From NCBI GenBank assembly GCA_002070965.1, contig MWEH01000095.1, forward strand, positions 6,349 through 70,348: a stretch of DNA of 64,000 nucleotides. Reading direction: 5' to 3'. A program made the translations under genes and the position numbers. Positions 12,151 through 24,090 of the stretch are shown here, one piece after another. The notes beneath the pieces were generated by a model, which saw only the letters and a program-made list of their open reading frames with translations, made no database searches and was not told the origin of the DNA. This stretch comes from Firmicutes bacterium ADurb.Bin080. GTDB taxonomy: Bacteria; Bacillota; Clostridia; Christensenellales; DTU072. Positions within the stretch are counted from its first letter, which is position 1; each line of letters begins with the position of its first letter.

Positions 12151-14298
12151 TTGGCAAAAAAGAATGACAATATAATGAATTCTGACAATCCTAACGAGTC
12201 CAAGAATGACAATATCTTAAATCCCAGTGTTTCAGACCCCGAGTCAGAAAGTCCAATTTTGGATAATCTTCCATCCGAGACCCAAACAGATATTTCTATT
12301 CAAGACACAAGCGAGGAACCCAATGTTCTCTCTGATGTCATTTCTAACGAACCTGCTGAGTCCGCTGAAGAAAGCGTTGATTCTGACACCGAAATACCTC
12401 CTCTTCTGGCAAAACCTGAAGAGCCTGCTGAGACTATTGAAGAAAGCGTTGATTCTGACTCCGAAATACCTCCTCTTCCGGCAAGACCTGAAGAGCCTGA
12501 GGTTTTTGTTGAGGGCAACTCTGAAGATGAATCATCCGAAATCTCTGAAATTGAAGGTGAGGCCCTTTCTGAAATTGAGCAGATAGAATATGAGCTTGAA
12601 AAACTTGAAAAAGAGATTGTACAGTCCGAAATAGATTCGGAAGGCGATTTCATTCCTGAGACAGAGGAAGAAAAACAAACAATGGCTGAAATTGAGCTTC
12701 TGGAAGTTGCTGCCAAAAAACAAACTAAAGAAGCAGATAAACTAACCAAGGAAATAATTCCTGCTCCAGAAGATGCAGATATGGTTGAAACTTACGTTCC
12801 AGAGTTTCAGAGAGAGCCTGGGACTCCTGAAAAACCCGCGGACGATGATGAGGAAGATCCTACACCAAAACCAGTAGAAGAAGAAAGTGAGGATTTACAA
12901 GCAGAGCTTGAAAGAATCTACGAAACTGGAGTTGGGACTGGGCTGGATGAATGGGATAGAGAAATTCTTCTCCCCGTTTTTGAGAACAGACTCAGAATGA
13001 CAAAAAATTCTACAAAGCTTTCTTACTCAAAACTAAAAAATCAAATTTTATCATTTAAGGGAATCTCCGCATCTTTCCAAGGACCCATCGAAAATTTCAG
13101 ATACAATAAAAAAATTGTTTTCAGATTCGCGATTAAAGATGATTCGGTTCAACTTTATTGTGCCCTTGACCCAGAGTCCATAGACAACAATGTATATCCG
13201 CACAAAAAGGCTAAAGGCGAGCACGCAAAGGCGACAGCGACAATACTTACTATAAACGATGAAAATTCTCTTAGAAATGCTGGGGAAATCATCACATTAG
13301 TTGCTGCAAAAATCGGAACTGCTGAAAAAGAACATCATGTTCCTGTAGCCTTCGCTGAAAGATACCCTATTAATCCCAACGGAGTCCTTTTTGGACAAGA
13401 AAGCAAACCACCCATCGATGGACAATATGATAACGATGATGACTATGCTCCGATATCCGGGGAAATAATAAACGGGATTATCGAAGCTAAGTTCGGAAAA
13501 TCCAAACTTCAGGAAAGGAAGGAGTTAAAGGGCAAGGAAGTTCTTGACGATTTGAGACAAACGGCAAACACAATTAAAGCTGCAGTAGCGCTCACAGAGC
13601 CCGTAGTATACTTCTTTGACGCGGCTTTAAACAAAGAAAGTTCTATTGAATATTTAAACATCCAACAGCTCTTGAACGATAAGTTTTTGGGGAAAATTGT
13701 TCCTCAGGTTTTCTTTGCAGTTGCTGAAGGAAGTGACAGAATTGAAAAATTTAATTTCCTATCTCTGGAATTTGCAGTAGAACAAGCTAATGCTTATCCA
13801 AGTACCCGATTTGTACTTGCATTAAGCTGCAGATTACTTATCAGGGATGAAGTCTTTGAAAGGCTGCTAAGAAACGCAAAAACCCTTAATGACAATTTGG
13901 TACTTGCGTTTGATTGTGCTCTTTTAGAATCACTTGGGGATATGGGTCTACAAAAAATTCGTAGGCTCAGAAACGAAGCAGGTGTTATGATTATGATAGA
14001 TAATTCAGAAAATGCAGGAATGCGTGTCTTGACAGAATATGATTTTGAATATATCAGATTTGACAGCAGATTCTACGCCGGAGACAATGCGAAACAACGG
14101 TCCCATCTTGAGATGATGACTGGATATGCAAGATCCCAAAATATCAAGACTACTTCCATCAACGTTCTTACTTTAAAAGAGGCCCAAATAATGGTTGAAA
14201 GAGGGGTCGATGTAATTCAAGGACCAGCCGCTTCAGAGCCAAAAAGAATAGCTACGCTGGCAATGAAAGGTGTTAAAAAACTTCCTCTTGGGAGGTAA
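12151..14298 (+). CDS. acidic-repeat protein with C-terminal degenerate EAL-like domain
   Basis: TTG start after AAAGGGG. The N-terminal ~260 aa are D/E/S/P-rich with a 24-aa tandem repeat. The C-terminal ~240 aa follow the EAL-domain motif order (EYL.., P..FF.VAE.., IMIDNSENAG for DDFGTGYS, IRFDSRFY for LKIDRSF, ..GVDVIQGPAASEP for G.D..QGY.F..P), but most catalytic residues are replaced. Confidence 0.6.
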   Translation: MAKKNDNIMNSDNPNESKNDNILNPSVSDPESESPILDNLPSETQTDISIQDTSEEPNVLSDVISNEPAESAEESVDSDTEIPPLLAKPEEPAETIEESVDSDSEIPPLPARPEEPEVFVEGNSEDESSEISEIEGEALSEIEQIEYELEKLEKEIVQSEIDSEGDFIPETEEEKQTMAEIELLEVAAKKQTKEADKLTKEIIPAPEDADMVETYVPEFQREPGTPEKPADDDEEDPTPKPVEEESEDLQAELERIYETGVGTGLDEWDREILLPVFENRLRMTKNSTKLSYSKLKNQILSFKGISASFQGPIENFRYNKKIVFRFAIKDDSVQLYCALDPESIDNNVYPHKKAKGEHAKATATILTINDENSLRNAGEIITLVAAKIGTAEKEHHVPVAFAERYPINPNGVLFGQESKPPIDGQYDNDDDYAPISGEIINGIIEAKFGKSKLQERKELKGKEVLDDLRQTANTIKAAVALTEPVVYFFDAALNKESSIEYLNIQQLLNDKFLGKIVPQVFFAVAEGSDRIEKFNFLSLEFAVEQANAYPSTRFVLALSCRLLIRDEVFERLLRNAKTLNDNLVLAFDCALLESLGDMGLQKIRRLRNEAGVMIMIDNSENAGMRVLTEYDFEYIRFDSRFYAGDNAKQRSHLEMMTGYARSQNIKTTSINVLTLKEAQIMVERGVDVIQGPAASEPKRIATLAMKGVKKLPLGR
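12352..12495 (+). repeat. in-frame 72-bp coding tandem repeat (2 copies)
   Basis: PAESAEESVDSDTEIPPLLAKPEE / PAETIEESVDSDSEIPPLPARPEE. The nucleotide copies at 12352-12423 and 12424-12495 are nearly identical. Confidence 0.95.
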
Positions 14299-14466
14299 GT
14301 ATTCACCTATCCTTCATGTAAATGCTTTTGTAGATTCGCGTAAAAAGAAGTATAATTATATAAAGGAAAACTGAAAAAATTAACGAACTGAAAGGCGAAA
14401 TAATATTTAGAAAATTACTCTATTTTTACTGAAAATTAACCGTAAAAATAGATAAACGGAGATTAA

Positions 14467-15495
14467 ATGGCAAAAAAAGACAATGTGGATAAAGAGGTAT
14501 TATCACCTCAGGAGCAGATGAAATCACGTCCAGCTCCGGATGCCCCGGTGGATAACAAGGGCACTTTAATCCGCAAAGAAAAACCAAAGAAGATGAAAGC
14601 TCGTGGAAAGAACATGGTGGAAAATACCGATGAACTATCCGGGAAATATGAGTATGTCATAAAGCACAAAAAAGTTGAAAAGGAAACAAAGAATCGTAGG
14701 TTCATAAGAATACTTCTAATCTTCCTTCTTTCCCTTCTAATCCTTGGGGGCGGACTATGGGGTGTCACCGCATTTATTGAGTACAACAATTTCCGTGTTG
14801 TTGTCGATAGACCCGGTCAAAATATTTTTGCAATCAGCCCTGCAAGAAGCCTTCAAAATACAACTGAAATTTATAACATCGATGGCCCAAGATATATGGA
14901 TAACATAACCCTTATGGGAATGGAAGACGTGATACTAGAAATCGAGGATTCTGATGGAGCAACCTCGAGGGACAACTTGATCGCTGCAACTTTTTATCTA
15001 ACAAATATCACCGATGATTCTAGGCGTTATAGAGAGGTTGTAGACATATCTGAAACTTCTCAAGGGCTCGAAGAAGCGATCCGAATTATGCTAATAAAGA
15101 GCACTTATAATGCTGACGGAACAGTCAAAAAACGTGTATGCAATGTATACGCTGCACCTCATTCTTTTGATGAGTTTGGGGTCCCAATACCCGAAGCTGT
15201 GGTTCCCTTGGCAACACCTTCTTATTACACCGGAGATGAGCTCAGACAGCTCGAAGGGCTTGGTCTTTCGGACTCAGAAGACTCGGAAGAATGGATGTCA
15301 ATACCCTTCCTTTCCTCAACTTTAGTCCTCGATCAAAACGGAGATTCTGAGGGCACTCCCGAAGACTACATTATCCCCCCAGGAGGCAAAGTGAAGTATA
15401 CACTTTTAATCTGGCTAGAGGGAAATGACAAGGACTGCATTGACGATAAACTCGGGGGCAGAATGAAACTTTCCTTGACCTTTAGCGAGGGTTAA
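14467..15495 (+). CDS. membrane-anchored TasA/TapA-like protein (paralog of the two downstream fibre-subunit candidates)
   Basis: ~75-aa basic cytoplasmic N-terminus, then a TM segment ending GGGLWGVTAFIEYNN (resembles SipW-type GGGTFAYFxD). The C-terminus YTLLIWLEGNDKDCIDDKLGGRMKLSLTFSEG shares the W-L-E-G...(L/V)xFx motif with ORFs 16616 and 17619. Confidence 0.5.
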   Translation: MAKKDNVDKEVLSPQEQMKSRPAPDAPVDNKGTLIRKEKPKKMKARGKNMVENTDELSGKYEYVIKHKKVEKETKNRRFIRILLIFLLSLLILGGGLWGVTAFIEYNNFRVVVDRPGQNIFAISPARSLQNTTEIYNIDGPRYMDNITLMGMEDVILEIEDSDGATSRDNLIAATFYLTNITDDSRRYREVVDISETSQGLEEAIRIMLIKSTYNADGTVKKRVCNVYAAPHSFDEFGVPIPEAVVPLATPSYYTGDELRQLEGLGLSDSEDSEEWMSIPFLSSTLVLDQNGDSEGTPEDYIIPPGGKVKYTLLIWLEGNDKDCIDDKLGGRMKLSLTFSEG

Positions 15496-15499
15496 AATT

Positions 15500-15600
15500 C
15501 TCAAAAAATCCCATTTTTTAAATTTTTAATATTTTCTGCACATCCACTCAAAAAATCCCATTTTAAATTTTTATATTTTCTGCACATTCACTCAAAAAAT
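15500..15600. repeat. about 2.3 near-identical tandem copies (44-47 bp) just downstream of ORF 14467..15495
   Basis: ctcaaaaaatcccattttttaaatttttaatattttctgcacatcca / ctcaaaaaatcccattttaaatttttatattttctgcacattca / ctcaaaaaatt... Confidence 0.9.
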
Positions 15601-16204
15601 TATTGCCAAACAATCCCAAATTTTTTTATTTCACTCAATAATCTCGGATTGCTTTTTTAACTATCTAAACAACAAATCCTTTTCGGTTTTTTCGCAAGCT
15701 TCTCCTTCATCCCCAATCTCCAATAATATTCTTTTTCCTCTTCCACTTTTACTTTCCCTCTCCCGGACCATAACAATAAAAAAGTAAGCACAATTTGTAT
15801 ATAATGATTTAAAAGAAACTAAAATCTTTTTCAATAGAGTTCAAAATTAGCTTAAGAAAATTTTCTGATCCATCATTCTTAGCCTCTTAAGTTAATACAA
15901 ATTAACAATAGAAACATCCTGCTCAATCAATTCCCGTAGAAACCTTTTTGCTTAGCACATAAGGTCAAGACAGTTAACCGATCCTATTGTTTCCACCCCT
16001 AACAGCCCCTACAAAAATACTTATTTTGGTAATTTGTCGTGAGATAAAAAAATAGTAAATGAACACTCAAGTTTCACAATTTCTTAATTGACTTAATCGC
16101 GCACGTGTATAATAATAAGACAGGAATTGAATTTTTAGCTTGAAATTTGTCACTTTACTCAACTAAACTAAAAAAGCTTAAAAATCAAAAACACGCGTAC
16201 ACTG

Positions 16205-16233
16205 TTGTGTCGAATATGTATACTTGTTATAAT
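16205..16233 (+). promoter_or_regulatory. sigma-70/SigA-type promoter candidate for the fibre-subunit operon
   Basis: TTGTGT (16205-16210), 17-nt spacer, then TATAAT (16228-16233), preceded by TGn (extended -10). It would give a ~375-nt leader before the ATG at 16616. Confidence 0.55.
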
Positions 16234-16410
16234 TACATTATGAAAGGAGCCCTTCACTTACACTCAATTTTTTCGGATGAGGCTCAAAAATCAAAAAATC
16301 TTTCTTACGAAGTGTTGCAAAACCCACACTTTCTTACATTGATTACAATACTTTTTTGTGGGATTCCCTATCAAATACTACTGCTGAGGCAGAGTATAAA
16401 AAATCCATAA

Positions 16411-16551
16411 CGGAGGTTGGCTATGGTAAACAAATCTTTTCGGTTAAGACGGTCAACTAGTAACGTTTCGTTACTGGTTCGGTTCTGTGAGGTAGATAGC
16501 TAGTACCGCACTTACCTAATTGGTAAACGTAACGTACATGGCCAACCACCG
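16411..16551 (+). promoter_or_regulatory. structured 5' leader element (candidate riboswitch or cis-regulatory RNA, class unknown)
   Basis: Closing helix CGG-A-GGTTGGCTATG (16411-16425) pairs with CATGGCCAACC-A-CCG (16537-16551): 14 bp with one G.U and one A.A. It encloses hairpins CTAGTAACG-TTT-CGTTACTGG (16457-16477) and GTGAGGTA..TACCGCAC (16487-16511). Confidence 0.45.
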
Positions 16552-16615
16552 AATATAACCGCGAAACAGATCGCACAAAACAAAATTAAAAAATTCTAAT
16601 TTATAGGAGAAAAAA

Positions 16616-17467
16616 ATGAAAACAAAATCACTTTTTATATCAACAATCGCAATGGTAGTATTGCTAGTTGTTGCTCTCGCCACCGGCACCTTTGCATGGT
16701 ACACCTCACAAAGCACTGCTACTGGTGAGTCTGCAGCTCTTTCAACTGCGGCTTCTACTTCTGCTACAATTGCTCTTGCCTGGTCTCCATCAGGAACAGG
16801 CAGTCAAGTTACTTTCGGTGTCTCCAATGTTGACCCAATGATACCGACTACGGAACTTGCAACTTATGACACGGGAAGTGGGGGAGTTCCTCCTGTGTTC
16901 GAAAGCGGTGTGCTTGGTGTTACTGGTGGGGGACAAGAGTACTTTAGGACAGTCAGCAGCCCTGCCTCTCCTTGGAAACAAAAGGATTCAACTAATGCTT
17001 TCAACACACTTTATCTCAGAAACTTAAACCCTAATGCTGGGGCAAAAATTACTACCTCTGTGACTCTTCCGACCACAGGAAACAGTGGGGAAACCATAGT
17101 TGATAACAATGACATACTTCGTGTCGCTATATACTCTGTCGTGGGAGACGCAACCGAGCATACTCTTATTGGCGTATGGGGCGTTGCTTCTGCTGGAGAC
17201 GCTTACTATGGTGATCTTACAGCATATCCTGGAACTGGCGAGTACACTGACTATTTAGTCGGAACATTCATGAGTGGTGCTTCCACACTCAGTTTAACAG
17301 GTTCCGGAGCCGCCAGTGTTACTTTTGATGTTCCAAAAAGCACGAATGCAGTTATTGAAATATACGCATGGCTTGAAGGAACAGTCCTTGACAACGATAG
17401 ATCTGCTTTAAGCACTACCGGAGATGAAGTAACTTTTAATGTCACTTTCTCTGCTGCAGAAATTTAA
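16616..17467 (+). CDS. secreted TasA-like fibre-subunit candidate with SipW-dependent-type signal peptide
   Basis: N-terminus MKTKSLFISTIAMVVLLVVALATGTFAWYTSQS matches the SipW-cognate pattern (h-region + G-T-F/Y-A-x-F/Y-S/T). S/T/G/A-rich mature part. C-terminal IEIYAWLEGTVLDND...VTFNVTFSA motif. Good RBS (AGGAG). Confidence 0.65.
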   Translation: MKTKSLFISTIAMVVLLVVALATGTFAWYTSQSTATGESAALSTAASTSATIALAWSPSGTGSQVTFGVSNVDPMIPTTELATYDTGSGGVPPVFESGVLGVTGGGQEYFRTVSSPASPWKQKDSTNAFNTLYLRNLNPNAGAKITTSVTLPTTGNSGETIVDNNDILRVAIYSVVGDATEHTLIGVWGVASAGDAYYGDLTAYPGTGEYTDYLVGTFMSGASTLSLTGSGAASVTFDVPKSTNAVIEIYAWLEGTVLDNDRSALSTTGDEVTFNVTFSAAEI

Positions 17468-17507
17468 TTCTACAATCATAGATACTTTCCGTCTTAATTA
17501 ACCGAAC

Positions 17508-17537
17508 CACCCCAGCGGGCAAAAGCCCGCTGGGGTG
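17508..17537 (+). terminator. strong intercistronic hairpin (attenuator or partial terminator) between the two fibre-subunit genes
   Basis: Perfect 13-bp stem CACCCCAGCGGGC / GCCCGCTGGGGTG with an AAAA loop. It is followed by AGAAAAGATTTT, so there is no immediate T-run. Confidence 0.6.
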
Positions 17538-17618
17538 AGAAAAGATTTTCACCGGCTAGAATAAAGTGAAGAGCACACTTCATTGTGGGATAGGGGGAAG
17601 TCAAAGAAGGTAAGATTA

Positions 17619-18470
17619 ATGTCAATAACCAATCCGAAATTTTCATTAAGATCATCGTCTCAGTTGTTTTTCACGACTATAGCGATGATTTTGTTGTTAG
17701 TAGTGGGACTTTCCACTGCTACTTTTGCATGGTTTTCGGCAAATAGCAGAGTGGGATCTGGGTCAATTATTTTTGAAGCTAGAAACACCGCCTCAGCAAG
17801 CATTTATTTGGGCTGGGTTCCAGATTCTGTAGAAAGTAGTATAACTTTCTCTGCCCCAGAGGAAATAGACCCTATGGTGCCCTCTTTTGCACCTATCAAT
17901 ACTACGAGAGTAGATGACTTTACGAATAATTTTTATACTGCTAGCATTAGTCCTGAAGGAGACAATGGTGAACCTTCTGTTTTCAATGAAAATGGATTTA
18001 GGGTCCTGCCGTATAAAGCATACCAAGGCCCCCCAGATTCGGTTGAGACCCAGGATTACTTTTATGTAATAAATGGAAGCGCTGAACCAACTATTGTCGT
18101 AATGCAGGTAACTTTCGAAGGAGATAACGCGGCATTACTTAGAGTTGGGCTGTTTGTGAATGAGACATATGTTGGAACGATAAGACCCTATGATGTAGAC
18201 CCAATGGCAACGACTCATTGCGGACCGATTGTTGAGGGTGGTAACCCATATAGCGATGGCTTTATTGAGATTCCAACAGATATGGCTTTATCATTTGGCT
18301 TGGGAGGAAAAGTTGATGGCTCAACCGATCATTTTGTGAGGGTTGAGGTTGTTTGCTGGTATGATGGAGTTTGGCTTGATGAAGATTTTATGGATGGAAA
18401 TGCGGAAATAGCGTTGGTATTTAGAGGACAAAAGGGTTTTAGTAATCCAAATGTTGTAACTAATCCGTAA
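17619..18470 (+). CDS. second TasA-like protein with SipW-dependent-type signal peptide
   Basis: Start set at the ATG at 17619 (MSITNPKF..). Signal region TTIAMILLLVVGLSTATFAWFSANS. C-terminal VEVVCWYDGVWLDEDFMDGNAEIALVFRG motif is paralogous to ORF 16616. Confidence 0.6.
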   Translation: MSITNPKFSLRSSSQLFFTTIAMILLLVVGLSTATFAWFSANSRVGSGSIIFEARNTASASIYLGWVPDSVESSITFSAPEEIDPMVPSFAPINTTRVDDFTNNFYTASISPEGDNGEPSVFNENGFRVLPYKAYQGPPDSVETQDYFYVINGSAEPTIVVMQVTFEGDNAALLRVGLFVNETYVGTIRPYDVDPMATTHCGPIVEGGNPYSDGFIEIPTDMALSFGLGGKVDGSTDHFVRVEVVCWYDGVWLDEDFMDGNAEIALVFRGQKGFSNPNVVTNP

Positions 18471-18674
18471 AGTTTAGTTTCTTTTTCATAAATAATTTTG
18501 CCTTTTTCCAGTTATTATTATAAAAAAGTTGCTATTTACTTCTTTATTTAGCGCCTGCGCGCGCATAAAGTTAATTTAGTATTGTGTTTTGTTTGTGAAT
18601 ATAGTATATTAATCATATAAATGCATCGCTTACTCTATTGATATTAGCGAATGCTTGTGGAAAGGAGAACTTTA

Positions 18675-19439
18675 ATGGGGATACAAAAAAAAGCTAAAGT
18701 ATCCAAGCTCAATGAAAAGCAGAAAAAGATCCTTAACATCATAATAACTGTTGCTCAAGTAGTTTTGATCCTAGTAGCTGTAGTCGCTTCAATTATCATT
18801 CTTGTCAATCCAACCGGTGCTACAATTAGAGAAAAGGGGATAACTCTGATGCCGGTTCTATCCGACTCAATGGATGGAGATCAAGAAGACAGTTTCAAAG
18901 AGGGAGATCTGTTGATTGTTCATGCTCCTGATGCCAAAAAGTATGACCCTACAAAATTGGTTGTAGGTGATATCATTACTTTTGAGTGGACCGTAGCCGG
19001 ACAAAAGATATATAACACTCACAGAATTGTCGATGTGGATGTTTTTGGAGATTCTGTAGTATATACTGCTAGAGGTGATAATCCTAATATCTTAGCAACT
19101 GATACACAGGTTGTTCCTGCAAACAAAGTACTTGGAATTTGTACTGGAAGCTTGAAAGGGGTTGGAAAAACTATAAGTTTCTTACAAACACCTTTGTATT
19201 TCTTATTGGTTATATTACTCCCCTTAGCTTTGTTGTTCATATATAACATCGTGTTGTTTGTAAAAATGATCATGGAACAAAAGTTGGCAAAAGTTGGTGC
19301 ACTTGGCGGAAGCGAAGAAGATGAAGCCACAAGAAAACAAAGAATAATCGATGAATATCTTGCCTCACAACAAAAGCAGGAAGAAAATAAAGTAGAAGTA
19401 GAAGAGACTGAGGCAGAAGAGCCCGGGGACGAGGAATAA
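18675..19439 (+). CDS. SipW-type (ER/archaeal-type) signal peptidase I
   Basis: S26 boxes LSDSMDG (Ser nucleophile), NTHRIVDV (His) and ARGDNPNILATD. N-terminal and C-terminal TM segments and an acidic tail. Start set at the ATG at 18675 after AAAGGAG. Confidence 0.8.
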   Translation: MGIQKKAKVSKLNEKQKKILNIIITVAQVVLILVAVVASIIILVNPTGATIREKGITLMPVLSDSMDGDQEDSFKEGDLLIVHAPDAKKYDPTKLVVGDIITFEWTVAGQKIYNTHRIVDVDVFGDSVVYTARGDNPNILATDTQVVPANKVLGICTGSLKGVGKTISFLQTPLYFLLVILLPLALLFIYNIVLFVKMIMEQKLAKVGALGGSEEDEATRKQRIIDEYLASQQKQEENKVEVEETEAEEPGDEE

Positions 19440-19470
19440 CAATTAGGTCCGGGCGTACAAAAAGATAATA

Positions 19471-19494
19471 ACGCCCTGTACGCAGGGCGTTTTA
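19471..19494 (+). terminator. rho-independent terminator after the first sipW-like gene
   Basis: ACGCCCTG / CAGGGCGT stem with a TACG loop, followed by TTTT. Confidence 0.75.
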
Positions 19495-19558
19495 TGTTAA
19501 AAGGCTATTTGGCTTTTAACAAAATAATAAAAGCTAATTGTAAGGGAAAAATTATTTC

Positions 19559-21118
19559 ATGTTTGGAAATTTCTTAAAAGACTTTTTAGGTATATTCTTT
19601 GGCGGAATATTAGGAATATTTTGGTCTAGCAAAGCATCTGATAATTATGGGGGAATTTTTGGAGCCCTATTCCAGATGTTTAATTTCCCTGCGTATATAG
19701 AAATATTTAAAAATTATGGGGATAAGTTGTCGGCTGGCCTTTGGGTTGCTGCAGCATTTTGCGTGCTACTGGTTCTTGCTGCATTGGTGGCAATTGTCTG
19801 GGTTGTTCTCTTCTTTGGTAAAAGACTTTGGAAGAAAATTGTTGGAGACAAGGTTTTAAATCAGGACTTAATGGATGAAATTGATAATCTTAAGAGAGAA
19901 TTGATTAAGGTTACCAGAGAAAAAGATAGGATTTTGGGATTGAAAATCGCATATCAGGGATATGATGTGACAGAGGGAGAAGAAGGCGAAAGTACCTCGG
20001 GGGCGAAGAAAGAAGGCGAAAGCAGATTCTATAAATTAACTGAAGTTGATTCTTTCTATTCAGATCCCGAATACGTAGCAAGAGAATATGACATTTCTTG
20101 GAATTTGGAAGAACTCTGCGACAGATTTAGAAATTATGCTGCAAATAATCCGGACAGACCTTGGCGTCATCTATATTATGAGCCAAAAATTATTAGATTA
20201 TTCTTTGCATCACTTGCAACTACTCGTCTGGTTATTCTTCAGGGTATATCTGGTACAGGTAAGACATCCCTCCCTGAATGTATGGGACACTTTTTCAAGA
20301 ATGATACTACGATTGCTTCAGTTCAGCCCTCTTGGCGTGATAGAACAGAGCTATTTGGATACTTTAACGAGTTTACAAAGAGGTTTAACGAAACAGAAGT
20401 TTTGAGAGCATTGTATGAATCAACATATAATGAGGACATTCACTTGGTCGTCTTGGACGAAATGAACATAGCCCGTGTCGAATACTACTTCGCAGAAATG
20501 TTATCCATCTTGGAAATGCCTTCAAGAGATCAGTGGATAGTTGACTTGGTTCCTAGCGGTTGGCCTTCCGACCCTAAACACGTTTTAAAAGGTCGTTTTA
20601 GACTTCCTGAGAATGTTTGGTATTGCGGAACAGCAAACAACGACGACTCCACCTTTGCTATATCAGATAAGGTTTATGATAGAGGTATGCCAATAAATAT
20701 CAACAGTAAAGCTGCAGCGTTTGAAGCTCCACTAACTAGTGGCCTTCCAGTTAATTACAAGTATCTTGAAAGTTTATATAAACTTGCCATGGAAAAACAT
20801 AGAGTTTCGGATGAAAACTTGCAGAAGTTTGAGGAAATGGACAATTATGTTATCGAACATTTCAGATTGGCTTTTGGTAACCGTATTGTTAAGCAGCTGA
20901 GAGAATTCGTTCCCGTTTATGTTGCTTGTGGCGGAACAGAAATTGATGGACTTGATTACGTCCTTTGTAATAAAATCCTACGCAAGTTTGAATCCTTAAA
21001 CTTGGCATACATCCGTGACGAGGTCGATGACTACATCCTTTATTTGGATAATCAATTCGGCGAAGAAAATATGGGTGAATGTAAAGATTATCTCCGCCGC
21101 TTGAAGAAGTTGTTCTAG
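19559..21118 (+). CDS. membrane-anchored McrB-family (AAA_5-like) AAA+ NTPase
   Basis: Hydrophobic N-terminus (FLGIFFGGILGIFW.. and LWVAAAFCVLLVLAALVAIVWVVLFFG), then a short coiled segment. Walker A GISGTGKTS, SVQPSWRDRTELFGYFN, Walker B and McrB-like signature VVLDEMNIARVEYYFAEMLSILE, and GTANNDDSTF. Confidence 0.75.
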   Translation: MFGNFLKDFLGIFFGGILGIFWSSKASDNYGGIFGALFQMFNFPAYIEIFKNYGDKLSAGLWVAAAFCVLLVLAALVAIVWVVLFFGKRLWKKIVGDKVLNQDLMDEIDNLKRELIKVTREKDRILGLKIAYQGYDVTEGEEGESTSGAKKEGESRFYKLTEVDSFYSDPEYVAREYDISWNLEELCDRFRNYAANNPDRPWRHLYYEPKIIRLFFASLATTRLVILQGISGTGKTSLPECMGHFFKNDTTIASVQPSWRDRTELFGYFNEFTKRFNETEVLRALYESTYNEDIHLVVLDEMNIARVEYYFAEMLSILEMPSRDQWIVDLVPSGWPSDPKHVLKGRFRLPENVWYCGTANNDDSTFAISDKVYDRGMPININSKAAAFEAPLTSGLPVNYKYLESLYKLAMEKHRVSDENLQKFEEMDNYVIEHFRLAFGNRIVKQLREFVPVYVACGGTEIDGLDYVLCNKILRKFESLNLAYIRDEVDDYILYLDNQFGEENMGECKDYLRRLKKLF

Positions 21119-21182
21119 TCAAACTGAATATATTTCAGCTGATGTATAAATAAGTGTATTTTGGGAGTTAACGTAGGTATTT

Positions 21183-23168
21183 ATGGCTCAATCACAGTAT
21201 GATGAGATTATTTTCCAGATAAATAATCTCCTTAAACAGGAGAAGATTTATCCATTGTACATGGGGTCAATTGCCGAAGGCAAAAACGACTATAAAATCA
21301 GCCAGGTTTACACAAAAAAGAACTATGATGACAGCTGGATAACTACCCTTGAAGAGTGTATTGTTCCTCTAGACACCATAGTAAGAAACCCCAGAAAGTT
21401 CATTATTATCGAAGAAGATATAGTCGATGTATCTTTAGCTAGATCCATTTCTATTGAATCAGTCAAGCATTTGGCTCAACATACCAACTTGATAGCAGCC
21501 GTTAAGAAAGATGGCTCAATTATCCCTTCAAAAATTCTTAATACCAGCAAGGAAGAGAGCTTTGAGATATATGAAAACCGTTTTATATACACCCTCTTAT
21601 TAAAGGTTAACGAGTTCGTTGAAAGAAGAACCGGGATTGTAAAAAAAGCATTGATGCAAGCTGGGGCACTTGGGGTCGACATCAAGTCAAATTTTAAAAT
21701 TAATGACTTCAGCGTAGACTTCACAATGAGCAATTCAGCAAACTTCCCTTTCGAGGCAGCCTTCAAGAAACAAGGAGACGAACACTCTGACCTTGAAAGA
21801 ATTGCATATATTACTCGTATTTACCAGGACTTCTTGTCCTCTCCATTTGCAAAAGAGCTAAAAAACTGCGCACTTGTTCGTCCCCCTATTACTCGTACTA
21901 ACGTAATTCTAAAGGATCCAAACTTTAAAAAAGCCCTAACTTTATGGCAGTTCGTTGAAAGTGCGGAAAAAATGGACTTCCGAATAGATACAGTAACTGA
22001 GGCGACTGATTTAAACGCCACCCTTACAGAAAAATATCGTGGTATCGTTTTCTTAAATACTGTTCTTCTTCAATCTATTGCCGAAACCAGACAAGAAAAT
22101 GAATCCTTAGAAAAAACGCTTAAACAAGACCAGGTTTTAGCAGATGATTATGTTACGAAAAATATAGATGACTTTGTCCCGGATGATTTCCCGCAGCTTA
22201 AGATGGATCTGAACGAAGTCAGACGAATATATTATCGTGTTCCAGGGCAAAAAACCCTTAGTTTAACAGAAATTGCAAAAGTTAATGCAGCTTTAGACAG
22301 GGTATACAGACAATATAGAATTAACAAAGCCAGAGATGACAGTATCACCAAAAAGAGATTAATTGCTAAACAGCTTGAAGAAGAAGCTCAAGCTAAACGA
22401 CTAGCTCTTAGGGAAGCTAGAGACATAGAAAGAGCAAAGAAACAAGAGGAAGCAAGGAGACGACTTGAACAAAGAAAGCTTGAAGCCGAAAGAAGAGCTG
22501 CACTTGAACGTGCTGAACAAGAGAGATTAGAAGCCGAAAGAAGAGCTGAAGAAGAGAGAATTCTTTTAGAGGCAGAAAAAGTACGTCTTGAGCAAGAAAG
22601 AAAGCGTCAAGAAGAAGAAAAACGAATTGAAATAGAAAAACAAGCTGCCGAAGAAGCGCATAAACTGAAAATTATTGAAGAACAAAAGATGGCCGCGCGT
22701 ATCCAGCAGGAAATGGAAGAATATAAAGCACGTCTTGAATCTGAAGAAAAGAGAATTGAGCTTGAACTGATTGAGAGACAGGAAAACTATTGGAAGAAGC
22801 AAAAAGAACTTCAGTTAAGATTACAAGTTGAAGATGATAAGACAAAGATATTTGAAAAGGAAACCTTCTATTTCTCGAAAGTTAAAAAAGATGAGAAGAA
22901 CAAAATGACAAAGCTTGAAATGCTTCGCAATACCCTCAGAAATGCGATGATCGTGGAGCATTACCAGGAAATTGAGAGCATATTAGAGTCTGCAAAAGAA
23001 CATTATTCCGAAGAACAATTAAAGGAAATCCGCGCCGAAATAAAAGCCACTGAAAAAGCTGAAGAAAAGAAAAGAAAAAAGAAAGAAAATAAAGGGCGCA
23101 AAAACGGACTTCAAAAGCTGACTGGGTTGTTTTCAAAGAAGGATAAAGATATAATAGAGAATAAATAA
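21183..23168 (+). CDS. McrC-N-terminal-like (DUF2357-like) protein fused to a long E/K/R-rich coiled coil; no nuclease domain recognised
   Basis: The N-terminal ~330 aa contain EESFEIYENRFIYTLLLKVNEFVERR (the ENRF-type motif of McrC-like partners). aa ~385-560 are almost pure E/K/R/A/L/Q heptad-like sequence (LEAERRAALERAEQERLEAERRAEEERILLEAEKVRLEQERKRQEEEKR..). Basic K-rich tail. Confidence 0.5.
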   Translation: MAQSQYDEIIFQINNLLKQEKIYPLYMGSIAEGKNDYKISQVYTKKNYDDSWITTLEECIVPLDTIVRNPRKFIIIEEDIVDVSLARSISIESVKHLAQHTNLIAAVKKDGSIIPSKILNTSKEESFEIYENRFIYTLLLKVNEFVERRTGIVKKALMQAGALGVDIKSNFKINDFSVDFTMSNSANFPFEAAFKKQGDEHSDLERIAYITRIYQDFLSSPFAKELKNCALVRPPITRTNVILKDPNFKKALTLWQFVESAEKMDFRIDTVTEATDLNATLTEKYRGIVFLNTVLLQSIAETRQENESLEKTLKQDQVLADDYVTKNIDDFVPDDFPQLKMDLNEVRRIYYRVPGQKTLSLTEIAKVNAALDRVYRQYRINKARDDSITKKRLIAKQLEEEAQAKRLALREARDIERAKKQEEARRRLEQRKLEAERRAALERAEQERLEAERRAEEERILLEAEKVRLEQERKRQEEEKRIEIEKQAAEEAHKLKIIEEQKMAARIQQEMEEYKARLESEEKRIELELIERQENYWKKQKELQLRLQVEDDKTKIFEKETFYFSKVKKDEKNKMTKLEMLRNTLRNAMIVEHYQEIESILESAKEHYSEEQLKEIRAEIKATEKAEEKKRKKKENKGRKNGLQKLTGLFSKKDKDIIENK

Positions 23169-23207
23169 TCTCTTATTATTTCCTGTTCTTTTGGGAGAGA
23201 TCTCTTA

Positions 23208-23948
23208 ATGATTGAATATAAATCGAAAGATTCTATTTCTAAACAAAAAAATCCAAAAAAGGGCGTAAAACTCGCGATAAATATCGCTACTTGGGTAGTG
23301 TTTATCATAATTTTTCTTTTAGTTTTTTCCGTACTTATTCAAAGTATAATGGGAGTTACTCCAAACCTTTTTGGCTACAGGTTTTATTTTGTACTTACTT
23401 CCAGTATGTCTCCCGAACTAAACCCTGGTGATGTTATTTTAAGTAAGTTATATAATGATGAAAAGAATATACCTGAACTAAAAGTCGGGGATGTGGTCAC
23501 TTACATAATTCCGGAGGGACAACCTAGAGCCGGATACCCTAATACTCATAAAATTATTACAGCTCCTTATGAAGACGAAGGGAAAACATATATAGTAACT
23601 AAGGGAGTTAATAACGTTATAGCCGATGCCCCCACTCCAGTAGAAAATGTGGAAGCTGTAATGGTACGCAAGTCTTCTTTTATGTCAGTATTGTATGGCT
23701 GGTTTATCGGAGGGAATACAGTGCTGATTATTCTGTTTATTGTCCCCTTCCTATTCATCATCGGATCTTTGATCTACCGATTGGTAGTTACTCTGAAATC
23801 AAAATCTACTCAACCCGTTCCTCCTGTCGAAGATGAGGATTACAAAAAGAAAGTAATAGAGGATTACTTGAAAAATACTGAATCAAAAAAGAAAGAGGAT
23901 CCGGATAATGAGTTGCCGCCTTTATCAGAGGATGAAAAAGAAGATTAG
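23208..23948 (+). CDS. second SipW-type signal peptidase I
   Basis: S26 boxes LTSSMSPEL, NTHKIITA and TKGVNNVIADAP. N- and C-terminal TM segments and an acidic tail. It lies 39 nt downstream of the coiled-coil gene with no terminator between them. Confidence 0.8.
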   Translation: MIEYKSKDSISKQKNPKKGVKLAINIATWVVFIIIFLLVFSVLIQSIMGVTPNLFGYRFYFVLTSSMSPELNPGDVILSKLYNDEKNIPELKVGDVVTYIIPEGQPRAGYPNTHKIITAPYEDEGKTYIVTKGVNNVIADAPTPVENVEAVMVRKSSFMSVLYGWFIGGNTVLIILFIVPFLFIIGSLIYRLVVTLKSKSTQPVPPVEDEDYKKKVIEDYLKNTESKKKEDPDNELPPLSEDEKED

Positions 23949-24090
23949 TTTTTATTTTTCTCTCGAAAAGACATATTCATAAGCCTAAAAATTGTTCGAA
24001 AAATGATCTTTTATATGGAGTATAAAATGTTTTGTTTTATGCTCCGTTTTTTTGTTATATAATCTATACATAATAAATAGGAGTATTTAT

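What the first reader, a model, noticed from the sequence alone, without database searches (positions are those of the whole stretch)
12151..23948. Expanded tapA-sipW-tasA-like fibre locus coupled to a membrane AAA+ module: candidate undescribed surface-fibre system
Nine co-oriented plus-strand elements form a unit that does not match the canonical three-gene tapA-sipW-tasA operon. The elements are: (1) an acidic protein with a degenerate EAL-like domain. (2) A membrane-anchored paralog with a long cytoplasmic N-terminus. (3) A 1.1 kb non-coding region with a strong promoter and structured leader. (4, 5) Two secreted paralogs with SipW-cognate signals (..ATGTFAWYTS.., ..STATFAWFSA..). (6) SipW-type peptidase 1, followed by a terminator. 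(7) A McrB-family AAA+ with N-terminal TM segments. (8) A McrC-N-like protein whose nuclease part is replaced by a ~180-aa E/K/R coiled coil. (9) SipW-type peptidase 2, with no terminator separating it from (7) and (8). The three TasA-like proteins share a C-terminal W-(L/Y)-(E/D)-G-x-x-x-D..hydrophobic-x-F motif. The second signal peptidase appears co-transcribed with the AAA+/coiled-coil pair. That suggests the NTPase module belongs to the fibre system (assembly, anchoring or remodelling) rather than being an unrelated insertion. I know of no described TasA/SipW system with such a module.
Basis: partly seen in the sequence, partly recalled or inferred. Interest (0 to 1): 0.85.

Follow-up and report, generated by a model that had tools for sequence, protein, structure and literature searches.

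The report
Membrane McrBC-like GTPase with surface-fibre genes
This is a real gene cluster, conserved across many uncultured gut and digester Clostridia, that joins secreted fibre-like surface proteins and their dedicated signal peptidases to a membrane-anchored, nuclease-free relative of the McrBC restriction motor; the class was named CoCoPALM in one paragraph of a 2024 paper and, as far as I could find, has never been studied.

Summary
The nine elements are all present as described. Family searches confirm a degenerate EAL protein, two archaeal/SipW-type signal peptidases, a McrB-type AAA+ with a transmembrane N-terminus, and a DUF2357 (McrC N-terminal) protein with a ~170-aa E/K/R-rich stretch instead of a nuclease. 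The three "TasA-like" proteins belong to one family.

The key prediction holds. Of 39 related loci with at least 6 kb of flank on both sides, 39 carry a signal peptidase, 39 the DUF2357 protein and 38 a p2-like anchor next to the AAA+ gene. The gene order is shuffled in some lineages. All four distant peptidase homologues I sampled sit in the same cluster. The module is therefore part of the system, not a defence insertion.

The TasA relationship is only weakly supported. There is no Pfam or PDB sequence match. The model is confident (pLDDT 86) and beta-rich, and its best fold matches are the AbpA bundling pilin (probability 0.89) and the TasA fibre, but none reaches E 0.001.

The system is not undescribed. 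Bell et al. [quoted passage not shown]

Not mentioned in the text of that paper:
- the pilin-like family
- the uncleaved anchor
- a conserved AIEEYLA cytoplasmic tail on the peptidases
- the c-di-GMP-type neighbours
- a hypervariable major subunit

The parts
12151..14298 (+). p1: acidic 715-aa protein with a catalytically degenerate C-terminal EAL domain (aa 509-697) and a 24-aa acidic tandem repeat (nt 12352-12499)
   Evidence: Pfam EAL 1.3e-15. Catalytic motifs are absent across 44 family members. pI 4.46. TRF period 72. An EAL-family gene lies upstream in 27 of 39 full-flank loci.
14467..15495 (+). p2: bitopic 'anchor' member (A-type) of the pilin-like family. It has a ~77-aa basic cytoplasmic N-terminus and one TM segment, and lacks the A|W cleavage motif.
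   Evidence: Profile homology to p3 and p4 over the full length. TM segment and juxtamembrane features. Present in 38 of 39 full-flank loci.
15500..15600 (.). 44-bp tandem repeat (2.2 copies) at the start of the long intergenic region
   Evidence: TRF score 172. Absent from the sister-species intergenic region.
16088..16116 (+). Sigma-70-like promoter candidate for p3 (TTGACT-17-AATAAT)
   Evidence: 10/12 match. TTGAC, CGCGCAC and the -10 region are conserved in L084. Inferred, not shown.
16431..16515 (+). Conserved 5'-leader block with two hairpins (16457-16477 and 16487-16511), about 100-185 nt upstream of the p3 start
   Evidence: nhmmer 5e-14 to L084. An 18-mer from it lies about 125 nt upstream of p3 orthologues in 18 of 19 metagenome contigs. 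RNAalifold pair counts. No Rfam family.
16616..17467 (+). p3: probable major secreted subunit (F-type). Signal peptide aa 1-27, predicted cleavage A27|W28. The mature domain is a beta-sandwich.
   Evidence: AF2 pLDDT 83.8 and 85.7. Foldseek best-probability hit is AbpA pilin 7ueg_A, and TasA fibre 8aur_A ranks 4th. The cleavage region aligns in register with TasA A27|A28. A relative is named by JGI as carrying a SipW-like signal peptide.
17583..18470 (+). p4: second secreted F-type paralogue (likely start ATG 17619), ..STATFA|WFSA..
   Evidence: 40% identity to p3 over the N-terminal 77 aa. Family profiles.
18651..19439 (+). p5: SipW/archaeal-type signal peptidase I with a ~54-aa cytoplasmic C-terminal tail carrying the motif RKQRIIDEYLAS
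   Evidence: NCBIfam SipW 2e-16; TIGR02228 3e-12, below cut-off. Ser, His and GD(N) Asp are conserved. The tail motif occurs in 45 of 69 p5-type proteins against 1 of 1098 background ORFs.
19470..19491 (+). Terminator-like 9-bp hairpin between p5 and p6 with a weak T-tract; possibly a partial terminator
   Evidence: In many relatives the peptidase and AAA+ genes are only 15-50 nt apart.
19559..21118 (+). p6: membrane-anchored McrB-family GTPase of the NxD clade. It has a G/F-rich N-terminus, a TM segment at aa ~60-87, a short coiled coil at ~98-130 and an AAA+ core from ~aa 200.
   Evidence: PDB McrB 2e-4. AAA_5. PADLOC PDC-M26A 3.7e-38. Hydropathy. N360-N-D362-D363, with D at position 3 invariant in 15 relatives. 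51-84% identity across at least 588 species genomes.
21183..23168 (+). p7: McrC-like protein without a nuclease. DUF2357 in the N-terminal third, an E/K/R-rich stretch at aa ~385-555 and a polybasic C-terminus.
   Evidence: Pfam DUF2357 at 24.2 bits, above the 23.3 cut-off; 33 of 35 family members hit it. No other domain. Composition. Always directly downstream of, or near, p6.
23208..23948 (+). p8: second SipW/archaeal-type signal peptidase. Ser and His are present, but the GD(N) Asp is replaced by Val. Tail motif KKKVIEDYLKN.
   Evidence: TIGR02228 6.6e-19, 68.3 bits, above the 51.85 cut-off. 23% identity to p5. Catalytic columns. At least two peptidases in 23 of 39 loci.
24015..24047 (+). 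Terminator-like hairpin with a T-run ending the unit
   Evidence: The next gene is a glycerate kinase, as in the sister species L084.

Best explanation
The locus is a chromosomal member of the CoCoPALM class. It is a conserved operon-like unit that most likely builds and anchors a protein polymer or array on the cell surface.

Shown:
- The genes form one conserved unit across orders of Clostridia.
- p3 and p4 carry a near-invariant N-terminal signal ending in (T/A)(F)A|W(F/Y)(T/S), next to two SipW/archaeal-type signal peptidases.
- p2, p3 and p4 are homologues.
- p6 is a TM-anchored McrB-type GTPase of the NxD clade.
- p7 is a DUF2357 (McrC N-terminal) protein with no recognisable nuclease.

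Inferred:
- p5, and possibly p8, cleave p3 and p4 at A|W.
- The mature jelly-roll-like subunits polymerise, probably through their N-terminal ~20 residues, which are disordered in the monomer model, in a donor-strand manner as in TasA and AbpA.
- p2, which lacks the cleavage motif, stays in the membrane as the base or anchor.
- A cytoplasmic p6 hexamer with the p7 DUF2357 stalk in its pore, as in McrBC, is tethered under the membrane by the p6 TM helices. It contacts the conserved AIEEYLA-type cytoplasmic tails of the peptidases and the basic N-terminus of p2, and uses GTP hydrolysis to drive or gate subunit processing and assembly. This would be functionally analogous to the ATPase, platform and prepilin-peptidase trio of type IV pili.
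- The degenerate EAL protein p1 supplies c-di-GMP-type regulatory input.
For: Linkage.
- At least 588 species genomes carry a p6 relative.
- In the 39 loci with at least 6 kb on both sides, a peptidase is present in 39, the DUF2357 protein in 39, a p2-type anchor in 38, an F-type subunit in 31 and an EAL protein in 27. There are about 3.5 pilin-like genes per locus.
- Gene order is rearranged in some lineages (A-B-S-C-S, B-C-S-A-S) while the genes stay neighbours.
- Reciprocal test: all four distant p5 homologues sampled (27-32% identity) lie in A-F-S-B-C-S clusters.

Not defence-like.
- The flanks are housekeeping genes and are syntenic with a sister species.
- p6 is 51-84% identical across orders.
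- No nuclease was found.

Secreted subunits.
- The signal region aligns in register with the experimentally defined TasA cleavage site.
- The mature model is confident, with pLDDT 85.7 and pTM 0.86.
- Its best-probability fold match is the AbpA bundling pilin, and the TasA fibre ranks 4th.
- The C-terminal strands align to a TasA-family profile at hhalign E 9e-4.
- The mature N-terminal 20 aa are unplaced in the monomer model.
- The mature part is hypervariable behind an invariant leader and signal peptide, as expected of an exposed major subunit.

Cytoplasmic coupling. The tail motif (E/D)E.K(R/K)(R/K)AIEEYLA occurs in 45 of 69 p5-type peptidases against 1 of 1098 background ORFs.

c-di-GMP link. 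EAL, GGDEF-EAL or HD+EAL genes lie upstream in many loci.

Literature. Bell et al. reached the pilus-assembly idea independently. In C. perfringens, secretion of SipW-operon, TasA-like BsaA oligomers depends on type IV pilus genes, and the oligomers are membrane-anchored (abstract and section titles of PMC11580942). That is a precedent for an NTPase machine serving TasA-like proteins.
Against: There is no experimental evidence of any kind.
- The fold matches are not significant (no Foldseek hit at E <= 1e-3; TM-scores 0.26-0.39).
- There is no Pfam, NCBIfam or PDB sequence membership in the TasA family.
- hhalign probability is only 22%.
- Polymerisation, cleavage, p6-p7 complex formation and every contact between the cytoplasmic and extracellular parts are inferred.
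- The closest sequence relatives of the p6 GTPase core include long coiled-coil fusions of CoCoNuT type, and p6 hits a PADLOC defence-candidate model.
- p8 in this window lacks the GD(N) Asp.
- In some lineages the downstream proteins with this signal are giant, adhesin-like proteins rather than small subunits. The cargo therefore need not be a fibre.
Confidence: 0.55

Rival explanations
1. It is a dedicated maturation, export and quality-control system for variable surface proteins (S-layer-like sheets or adhesins) rather than a fibre. The peptidases process a family of cargo proteins. The membrane GTPase/McrC-like pair regulates the peptidases or extracts signal peptides and anchors. No donor-strand polymer is formed.
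For: - The fold evidence for TasA/AbpA is not significant.
- Loci carry several diverse paralogues, and in about 20 loci giant (>2000 aa) secreted proteins; one 1298-aa protein carries the same FAW signal.
- A strong promoter, a long conserved leader and a hypervariable exposed domain also fit an S-layer-type major surface protein.
- The conserved peptidase tails point to regulation of the peptidase itself.
Against: - The best-probability fold hits are fibre subunits (AbpA and TasA; cannulae and EcpA also appear in the list).
- The mature N-terminal segment is disordered, as in donor strands.
- A conserved uncleaved paralogue (p2) is easier to explain as a polymer base.
Confidence: 0.25
2. It is a cell-division or envelope-morphogenesis complex. 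The FtsB-like TM plus coiled coil of p6 docks it at the divisome. The very high conservation of p6 reflects a housekeeping role, and the secreted paralogues are septal or sheath components.
For: - p6 is unusually conserved (58% mean column identity across orders, with long invariant runs).
- Bell et al. report homology of the N-terminal fusion to FtsB.
- The context is chromosomal, among housekeeping genes.
Against: - Pfam FtsL/DivIC matches to ten N-terminal fragments are at noise level (0.022 and 0.51).
- No division genes recur in the neighbourhood.
- A hypervariable major subunit and c-di-GMP-type regulators fit a surface or adhesion organelle better.
Confidence: 0.1
3. p6/p7 are an anti-phage McrBC/CoCoNuT-type defence module that merely sits beside a fibre operon.
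For: - McrB and DUF2357 homology.
- PADLOC candidate PDC-M26A, 3.7e-38.
- The NxD clade is shared with CoCoNuTs.
Against: - No nuclease or other effector domain was found.
- p6 has a TM anchor instead of a DNA- or RNA-binding domain.
- Co-occurrence with peptidases is 39 of 39, across orders and despite rearrangements.
- Conservation is extreme and the context is housekeeping rather than a defence island.
Confidence: 0.05

Closest known systems
[quoted passage not shown] 2024, eLife 13:RP94800 (PMC11090510)
   Same: An NxD-type McrB GTPase with an N-terminal TM plus coiled coil, a DUF2357 McrC homologue carrying a coiled coil, and adjacent signal-peptidase-family genes. All of these are seen here.
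   Different: The paper gives one paragraph and defers the analysis. Its text, and the supplements held as text, do not mention the substrate or pilin-like family, the uncleaved anchor paralogue, the EAL/GGDEF neighbours, the peptidase tail motif or the distribution. I could not check accession lists, so identity of the clade is inferred from the defining features.
tapA-sipW-tasA operon of Bacillus subtilis, with TasA donor-strand fibres (PMC9674648) and TapA (PMC10151520)
   Same: A dedicated ER/archaeal-type signal peptidase encoded with its secreted substrates. The cleavage-site region is similar (G-T-aromatic-A | aromatic). The model is beta-rich, with the TasA fibre among the top fold hits. 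There is an accessory paralogue that could nucleate or anchor the polymer.
   Different: - No sequence-family membership.
- Two peptidases with long cytoplasmic tails.
- The accessory protein p2 is a membrane-anchored paralogue of the subunits, not a TapA homologue.
- Three or more subunit paralogues per locus.
- An McrBC-derived GTPase module, which no TasA operon is known to have.
Archaeal bundling pili AbpA/AbpB of Pyrobaculum calidifontis (PMC9245690; PDB 7ueg)
   Same: It is the best-probability structural match of the p3 model (0.80 and 0.89). It is a jelly-roll subunit with an N-terminal donor strand and is a remote TasA homologue.
   Different: E-values are 0.014-0.042 and TM-scores about 0.3-0.4. 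The archaeal operon has no dedicated peptidase and no NTPase.
McrBC type IV restriction enzyme and CoCoNuT systems
   Same: p6 aligns to the McrB AAA+ core, including Walker A and B and the signature motif. p7 has the DUF2357 domain that in McrC inserts into the McrB ring (the last point from established knowledge of PDB 6hz4 and 6ut6).
   Different: No DNA- or RNA-binding domain and no PD-(D/E)xK, HEPN or other nuclease. p6 is membrane-anchored. The genes sit in a fixed housekeeping context and always have peptidase and pilin-like neighbours.
Type IV pilus / type II secretion machinery (functional analogy only)
   Same: Subunits with an N-terminal hydrophobic segment, a dedicated membrane peptidase, a hexameric cytoplasmic NTPase tethered to the membrane, and several minor-subunit paralogues. 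c-di-GMP receptors with degenerate EAL domains control some T4P systems (for example FimX; from my own knowledge).
   Different: None of the parts is homologous. The signal is a type I, SipW-type signal rather than a class III signal. The motor is a McrB-type GTPase rather than a PilB-type ATPase. No PilC-like platform protein is present.
Clostridium perfringens bsa operon (sipW-bsaA-bsaB-bsaC; PMC11580942)
   Same: It is a clostridial SipW operon with remote TasA homologues predicted to polymerise by donor-strand exchange. The oligomers are membrane-anchored, and their secretion depends on an NTPase-driven machine (type IV pilus genes).
   Different: That machine is a separate T4P system. There is no McrBC-like module. 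Homology of p3/p4 to BsaA was not tested.

Membership tests
CoCoPALM (Bell et al. 2024) | McrB-like GTPase with the NxD (not NxxD) signature motif, usually followed by E or D | tested here: met
   p6 reads GTA-N360-N-D362-D363-ST. In 15 diverse relatives the motif is GT.N.D(E/D/Q)ST, with D invariant at position 3.
CoCoPALM (Bell et al. 2024) | GTPase fused to an FtsB-like domain (TM helix plus coiled coil) | tested here: inconclusive
   The TM segment at aa ~60-87, followed by K/R residues and a heptad-like stretch at 98-130, is present and conserved in 16 homologues. Pfam FtsL/DivIC matches are only noise (0.022 and 0.51 in 2 of 10 fragments). The architecture is met; FtsB homology is not shown.
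CoCoPALM (Bell et al. 2024) | McrC homologue (DUF2357) carrying a coiled coil | tested here: met
   DUF2357 at 24.2 bits against a 23.3 cut-off, hit by 33 of 35 members. E/K/R-rich stretch at aa 385-555. The coiled coil itself is inferred from composition, not predicted with a dedicated tool.
CoCoPALM (Bell et al. 2024) | Genomic association with signal-peptidase-family genes | tested here: met
   39 of 39 full-flank loci, with two or more peptidases in 23 of 39. The reciprocal test gave 4 of 4.
TasA / camelysin family (Pfam Peptidase_M73; NCBI 'TasA family protein') | Match to the family sequence models | tested here: not met
   No Pfam or NCBIfam hit for p2, p3 or p4. None of 87 family members hits Peptidase_M73. 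The family profile finds nothing in the PDB, which includes TasA.
TasA / camelysin family | SipW-cognate signal peptide with cleavage after ..G-T-aromatic-A | tested here: inconclusive
   The region aligns in register, p3 A27|W28 to TasA A27|A28 (low probability because it is short). The mature TasA start was verified against 8aur. TIGR04088 was not hit for p3 or p4 at E <= 0.1, but JGI gives a relative a SipW-like signal-peptide name. Cleavage itself is not testable here.
TasA / AbpA superfamily (fold level) | Jelly-roll domain resembling TasA or AbpA | tested here: inconclusive
   The AF2 mature model has pLDDT 85.7. Foldseek gives 7ueg_A at probability 0.89, E 0.014, TMt 0.39, and 8aur_A at E 0.017, probability 0.38. 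No hit reaches E <= 1e-3. hhalign against the TasA-family alignment A8 gives E 9e-4 and probability 22% over the C-terminal strands only.
TasA / AbpA superfamily (fold level) | Polymerisation by donor-strand exchange | not testable with these tools
   Only the indirect observation that the first 20 mature residues are unplaced in the monomer model. This needs multimer modelling or cryo-EM.
SipW / archaeal-ER-type signal peptidase I (TIGR02228; NF046067 SipW equivalog) | Score above the curated cut-off | tested here: inconclusive
   On TIGR02228, p8 scores 68.3, above the 51.85 cut-off (met), and p5 scores 46.7, below it. Both are far below the Bacillus SipW equivalog cut-off (58-60 against 190). 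They are members of the type, not SipW orthologues.
SipW / archaeal-ER-type signal peptidase I | Catalytic Ser and His, plus the conserved Asp of the GDN box | tested here: inconclusive
   Ser(-Met) and (T)His are essentially invariant in both subfamilies. The GD(N) Asp is present in 67 of 69 p5-type proteins but only 37 of 52 p8-type, and window p8 has Val. Which Asp is essential could not be tested.
McrBC type IV restriction system | McrC PD-(D/E)xK nuclease and a nucleic-acid-binding N-terminal domain on McrB | tested here: not met
   p7 has no domain other than DUF2357. The p6 N-terminus is a membrane segment.
EAL c-di-GMP phosphodiesterase | EAL fold together with the catalytic motifs (E.L, N, E.TE, DDFG, K, EGVE, QG) | tested here: not met
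   The Pfam EAL domain is above its cut-off (57.8 against 31.3). In p1 the motif positions read LALS, AFDC, IDNSENAG, RFD, INVL and QG. Across the family EGVE occurs in 0 of 44 and DDFG in 2 of 44. No PDB EAL chain matches at E <= 0.01. The domain is present, but enzymatic membership is unlikely.

The most novel reading that the evidence does not exclude
The cluster encodes a previously uncharacterised kind of surface-filament machine. In it, a nuclease-less McrBC-type GTPase motor, anchored in the membrane, has been co-opted to drive or gate the processing and donor-strand assembly of TasA/AbpA-like subunits. It would do so through direct contact with the cytoplasmic tails of dedicated signal peptidases and a membrane-anchored base subunit, under c-di-GMP-type control. 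That would make it a non-homologous analogue of the type IV pilus machine, widespread in uncultured gut and digester Clostridia.
Probability: 0.3. Interest if true: 0.85.

Novelty: new member of a known kind. Interest (0 to 1): 0.62.

Why it matters
If the best reading is right, a restriction-enzyme motor (McrBC) has been repurposed as part of a cell-envelope assembly machine. That would be a rare, clear case of a defence NTPase recruited into housekeeping surface biogenesis.

TasA-type fibres are thought to self-assemble outside the cell without an energy source, so a coupled GTPase would change that picture for a large group of Firmicutes.

The system is present in at least 588 species-level genomes, mostly uncultured Christensenellales and Oscillospirales from animal and human guts and from anaerobic digesters. 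Its major subunit is hypervariable. It is therefore likely to be a main surface antigen or adhesion structure of abundant gut bacteria.

The class has a name but no published analysis. The parts list here (anchor paralogue, peptidase tail motif, EAL/GGDEF partners, predicted cleavage site) makes it directly testable.

Tried and rejected
1. Direct sequence membership of p2, p3 and p4 in the TasA family. Pfam, NCBIfam, a PDB profile search and per-member Pfam scans of 87 homologues were all negative.

2. hhalign of the family against a single TasA sequence aligned only the signal region. Against a nine-member TasA-family alignment built from Bacillus plasmids it gave a weak C-terminal match for A2 and nothing for A4.

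3. Foldseek with the full-length model was blurred by the signal helix. I repeated it with the mature domain. TasA then appeared at rank 4, but still not significantly.

4. A profile of the p7 N-terminus against the PDB gave only low-complexity ribosomal hits. Full-length p7 against Pfam gave nothing because of coiled-coil bias. The truncated query gave DUF2357.

5. FtsB/DivIC homology of the p6 N-terminus was at noise level.

6. Rfam on the whole unit, including the 1.1-kb gap, gave no credible family.

7. The leader block is conserved only in close relatives, so I built no covariance model.

8. A search for domain fusions among longer p6 relatives (a Rosetta-stone test) gave nothing informative.

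9. Cluster-member names for distant p6 representatives were almost all unnamed metagenomic proteins. One, from Evansella vedderi, is annotated 'myosin heavy subunit' and is a CoCoNuT-like fusion.

10. p1 EAL region against the PDB by phmmer gave no hit.

11. The defence-island reading was rejected on synteny, conservation and the absence of an effector.

12. Literature searches for a follow-up on CoCoPALM, or for any SipW/TasA plus McrB report, found none.

Full report
**1. What is in the sequence**

- p1 (715 aa) is acidic: pI 4.46, with 29% D+E in its first 300 residues. It contains a 24-aa tandem repeat. Its C-terminus matches Pfam EAL (1.3e-15).
- At the positions of the EAL catalytic motifs, p1 reads LALS, AFDC, IDNSENAG, RFD and INVL. 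Across 44 family members, EGVE is never present and DDFG occurs twice. No solved EAL chain matches at E <= 0.01.
- p5 and p8 hit the SipW and archaeal-type signal peptidase models. p8 is above the TIGR02228 cut-off, p5 is just below it, and both are far below the Bacillus SipW equivalog cut-off.
- p6 matches the McrB AAA+ core in three solved structures (about 2e-4 to 5e-4) and AAA_5 weakly. It has Walker A at 229 and Walker B at 297. Its N-terminus has a G/F-rich segment, a strongly hydrophobic stretch at aa ~60-87, a K/R cluster and a short heptad-like stretch.
- Full-length p7 hits nothing. Its first 420 residues hit Pfam DUF2357, the McrC N-terminal domain, above the curated cut-off. So do 33 of 35 homologues, the best at 3e-15.
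- Residues ~385-555 of p7 are 40-67% E/K/R. No nuclease domain is detectable.
- The p6-p7 and p7-p8 gaps are 64 and 39 nt, with no terminator-like site. A hairpin with a weak T-tract follows p5, and a hairpin with a T-run follows p8.

**2. The three 'TasA-like' proteins are one family**

- BLAST links p3 and p4 only through their first 77 residues (40% identity). p2 is barely linked at all.
- Iterated profile searches over the ORFs of 83 related loci join all three over their full lengths. The p2 profile reaches p3 at 4e-24, covering aa 2-280, and the p4 profile reaches p2 at 4e-36.
- The family has about 230 members in those loci. That is about 3.5 per locus in the loci with full flanks.
- The secreted (F-type) members share the N-terminus MKK-hydrophobic-L(S/T)TATFAWF(S/T). 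W is invariant and the preceding A nearly so.
- The p2 type (A-type) has a longer basic cytoplasmic N-terminus and lacks the A|W motif. Its TM segment runs straight into ..(I/V)(D/E).N(S/N)F(K/R)(V/I)... It therefore looks like an uncleaved signal-anchor.

**3. Are they TasA-like?**

Sequence-family membership is not met.
- Pfam and NCBIfam give nothing for p2, p3 or p4.
- None of 87 family members hits Peptidase_M73.
- A family profile finds nothing in the PDB.

The solved chain starts at residue 28, which confirms the known cleavage after A27.

- hhalign of the family against that sequence aligns only the cleavage region, but in register..ATGTFA|WYTS.. with ..GGGTWA|AFND...
- Against a nine-member TasA-family alignment built from Bacillus plasmid genes, the family profile aligns its last two strands, including the W.EG.D motif, to the last strands of TasA. 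The E-value is 9e-4 and the probability 22%. The narrower p3 alignment gives nothing.

AlphaFold2 models of p3 are confident.
- The full-length model has pLDDT 83.8. The mature 28-283 model has pLDDT 85.7 and pTM 0.86.
- They show an N-terminal helix (the signal peptide), about 20 unplaced residues, and then a beta-rich domain.
- Foldseek against the PDB gives no hit at E <= 1e-3.
- The highest-probability hit in both runs is AbpA, the TasA-like bundling pilin of Pyrobaculum (7ueg_A; probability 0.80 and 0.89, TMt ~0.4).
- With the mature model, the TasA fibre 8aur_A ranks 4th (E 0.017). Jelly-roll capsid proteins, the Pyrodictium cannula subunit and EcpA also appear.

Taken together, a remote TasA/AbpA-superfamily relationship is plausible (I put it near 0.6) but not demonstrated.

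**4. The decisive test: is the NTPase pair part of the system?**

p6 is very widespread and very conserved.
- Thousands of homologues exist at 60-99% identity, in MAGs labelled Clostridia, Christensenellaceae and similar.
- 58% of alignment columns are identical on average across 16 diverse members.
- 734 clusters at 50% identity score E <= 1e-30.
They include Christensenellales, Acutalibacteraceae, Oscillospiraceae, 'Ruminococcus sp. CAG:488' and some MAGs labelled Bacilli.

I searched the ORFs of the 80 best loci with the window's proteins and with iterated family profiles. Among the 39 loci with at least 6 kb on both sides of p6:

| Neighbour of p6 | Loci (of 39) |
|---|---|
| SipW-type peptidase | 39 |
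| DUF2357 protein | 39 |
| p2-type anchor | 38 |
| F-type subunit | 31 |
| EAL-family protein | 27 |
| Two or more peptidases | 23 |

- The commonest order is E-A-F-S-B-C-(S)-(F...), where E = EAL protein, A = p2-type anchor, F = secreted subunit, S = peptidase, B = p6 and C = p7.
- Several lineages have A-B-S-C-S, B-C-S-A-S or B-A-C. The genes stay neighbours through rearrangement.
- Reciprocally, four distant p5 homologues (27-32% identity) on long contigs all sit in complete A-F-S-B-C-S clusters.
- A sister species (p6 85% identical) has the same eight genes between the same housekeeping flanks: a cation-efflux gene and an M20 peptidase upstream, and glycerate kinase, phosphopentomutase, PNP and DeoC downstream (window flanks).

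The linkage is strongly supported.

**5. It already has a name**

A full-text search for DUF2357 plus 'signal peptidase' led to Bell et al. 2024 (eLife 13:RP94800, PMC11090510). [quoted passage not shown] They name them CoCoPALM and leave them for 'a separate, forthcoming publication'.

The defining features are met here.
- The signature motif in p6 is N360-N-D362-D363. In 15 diverse relatives it reads GT.N.D(E/D/Q)ST. This is the NxD variant followed by E or D, exactly as that paper describes.
- The TM-plus-coiled-coil N-terminus is present, although I could not show FtsB homology.
- The DUF2357-plus-coiled-coil partner and the peptidase association are present.

I found no later paper on CoCoPALM, nor any paper linking SipW/TasA with McrB. 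The supplements held as text do not mention it. The finding is therefore a member of a named but unanalysed class.

**6. Features I did not find in the text of that paper**

(a) The substrate/pilin-like family with cleaved (F) and uncleaved (A) forms, described in section 2.

(b) The peptidases have cytoplasmic tails of median ~54 aa after their second TM segment. These carry the motif (E/D)E.K(R/K)(R/K)AIEEYLA.
- It occurs in 45 of 69 p5-type and 15 of 52 p8-type proteins, against 1 of 1098 other ORFs.
- The window has RKQRIIDEYLAS in p5 and KKKVIEDYLKN in p8.
- A conserved cytoplasmic peptide on an enzyme whose active site is outside the cell argues for a cytoplasmic partner. p6 and p7 are the obvious candidates.

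(c) The p8-type peptidases often lack the GD(N) Asp (present in 37 of 52; the window has Val), while Ser and His stay invariant.

(d) Upstream regulators are c-di-GMP-related in several forms: degenerate EAL, GGDEF-EAL, and HD/HD_5+EAL next to a histidine kinase and response regulator.

(e) p3 has a conserved promoter and a ~500-nt leader, including a conserved ~90-nt block with two hairpins.
- An 18-mer from the block retrieved 19 metagenome contigs. In 18 of them it lies ~125 nt upstream of a p3 orthologue.
- In those orthologues the signal peptide (MKTKSLFISTIAMVV..GTFAWYT) is almost invariant, while the mature sequence diverges immediately after the cleavage site.
- The same pattern appears in the homologue list: 30-45% overall identity with an invariant N-terminus. 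This is the pattern expected of an abundant, exposed, diversifying surface subunit.

(f) In about 20 loci a giant secreted protein follows p7. In another group of loci, very large proteins carry the same FAW signal; one is 1298 aa.

**7. How it most likely works**

Shown:
- a conserved unit
- secreted paralogues with a SipW-like signal, next to SipW-type peptidases
- a TM-anchored NxD McrB GTPase
- a nuclease-less DUF2357 partner

Inferred:
- The peptidases cleave F-type subunits at A|W.
- The subunits polymerise on the surface through their free N-terminal strand, as TasA and AbpA do (PMC9674648, PMC9245690).
- The uncleaved p2 forms the membrane-embedded base.
- p6 forms a hexamer under the membrane with the p7 DUF2357 stalk in its pore, as McrC sits in McrB (established from PDB 6hz4 and 6ut6). 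The p7 coiled coil may bridge rings.
- GTP hydrolysis is coupled, through the peptidase tails and the p2 N-terminus, to processing, release or assembly of subunits. c-di-GMP-type proteins set the level.
- This is functionally analogous to the prepilin-peptidase, platform and ATPase logic of type IV pili, but built from unrelated parts.
- In C. perfringens, export of a SipW-operon TasA-like polymer depends on type IV pilus genes, and the polymer is membrane-anchored (PMC11580942). That is a precedent for coupling such proteins to an NTPase machine.

I give this overall reading 0.55. The specific 'GTP-driven assembly' step is weaker, at about 0.3.

**8. Rivals**

| Rival reading | Confidence | Main points |
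|---|---|---|
| Cargo-maturation system for S-layer-like proteins or adhesins, without fibres | 0.25 | Cannot be excluded: fold evidence is weak and some cargo proteins are giant. |
| Division or morphogenesis complex | 0.1 | Fits the conservation and the reported FtsB-like fusion; lacks neighbourhood support. |
| Defence module | 0.05 | Contradicted by synteny, context, conservation and the lack of any effector. The PADLOC candidate hit reflects the GTPase core shared with CoCoNuTs. |

**9. Verdict**

The linkage is strongly supported, the TasA relationship weakly, and the claim that the system is undescribed is not supported.
- Novelty: a new member of a known (named, uncharacterised) kind.
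- Interest 0.62. The biology would surprise specialists and is now testable, but the central idea is already in print, and nothing here is experimental.

Noticed in passing
window 16616-17467; L086-L104: p3 orthologues recovered from metagenomes share an almost invariant 5' leader and signal peptide (MKTKSLFISTIAMVV..GTFAWYT). Their sequences diverge sharply right after the predicted cleavage site, which suggests diversifying selection on an exposed major subunit.
   Followed up: partly
window 19280-19439 (p5 tail) and 23800-23948 (p8 tail); peptidase genes of L001-L108: The SipW-type peptidases carry cytoplasmic C-terminal tails of ~54 aa (median) with a conserved motif (E/D)E.K(R/K)(R/K)AIEEYLA. 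It occurs in 45 of 69 p5-type and 15 of 52 p8-type proteins, against 1 of 1098 background ORFs. From memory, the C-terminus of B. subtilis SipW has a separate regulatory role (Terra et al. 2012); I did not check this here.
   Followed up: partly
window 23208-23948: p8 has KGVNN where the family has KGD(N/A). The Asp is present in only 37 of 52 p8-type peptidases but in 67 of 69 p5-type ones. The second peptidase may have altered or lost activity in some lineages.
   Followed up: partly
window 15500-15600: A 44-bp tandem repeat (2.2 copies, 92% matches) lies just downstream of p2. It is absent from the shorter intergenic region of the sister species. Its function is unknown.
   Followed up: no
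window 12352-12499: A 72-bp (24-aa) tandem repeat lies in the acidic N-terminal half of p1 (..EESVDSD(T/S)EIPPL(L/P)A(K/R)PEEP..).
   Followed up: no
L048:13801-20970; L029:15679-19575: In about 20 Acutalibacteraceae-type loci a giant secreted protein (for example 2389 aa) directly follows the McrC-like gene. Another group of loci has very large proteins with the same ..SFAWY.. signal; one is 1298 aa. The system may therefore also handle large adhesin-like cargo.
   Followed up: no
L106:2660-6269; L107:1109-5394: In distant versions of the cluster the upstream regulator is a GGDEF+EAL protein plus a second EAL protein. In another it is an HD/HD_5+EAL protein next to a histidine kinase and response regulator. 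This reinforces a c-di-GMP connection.
   Followed up: partly
window 19559-21118: p6 hits the PADLOC defence-candidate model PDC-M26A (3.7e-38) over the GTPase core only. Automated defence finders may therefore mislabel CoCoPALM GTPases as defence genes.
   Followed up: no
L032 (CAVABL010000132.1): One locus comes from a bin assigned to the species 'Firmicutes bacterium TM09-10'. The strain-like name suggests a cultured isolate may exist, which could be an experimental host. This was not verified.
   Followed up: no
window 50606-56302 (- strand): A very long ORF (1898 aa) with an N-terminal TM segment lies elsewhere in the window. It was not examined.
   Followed up: no
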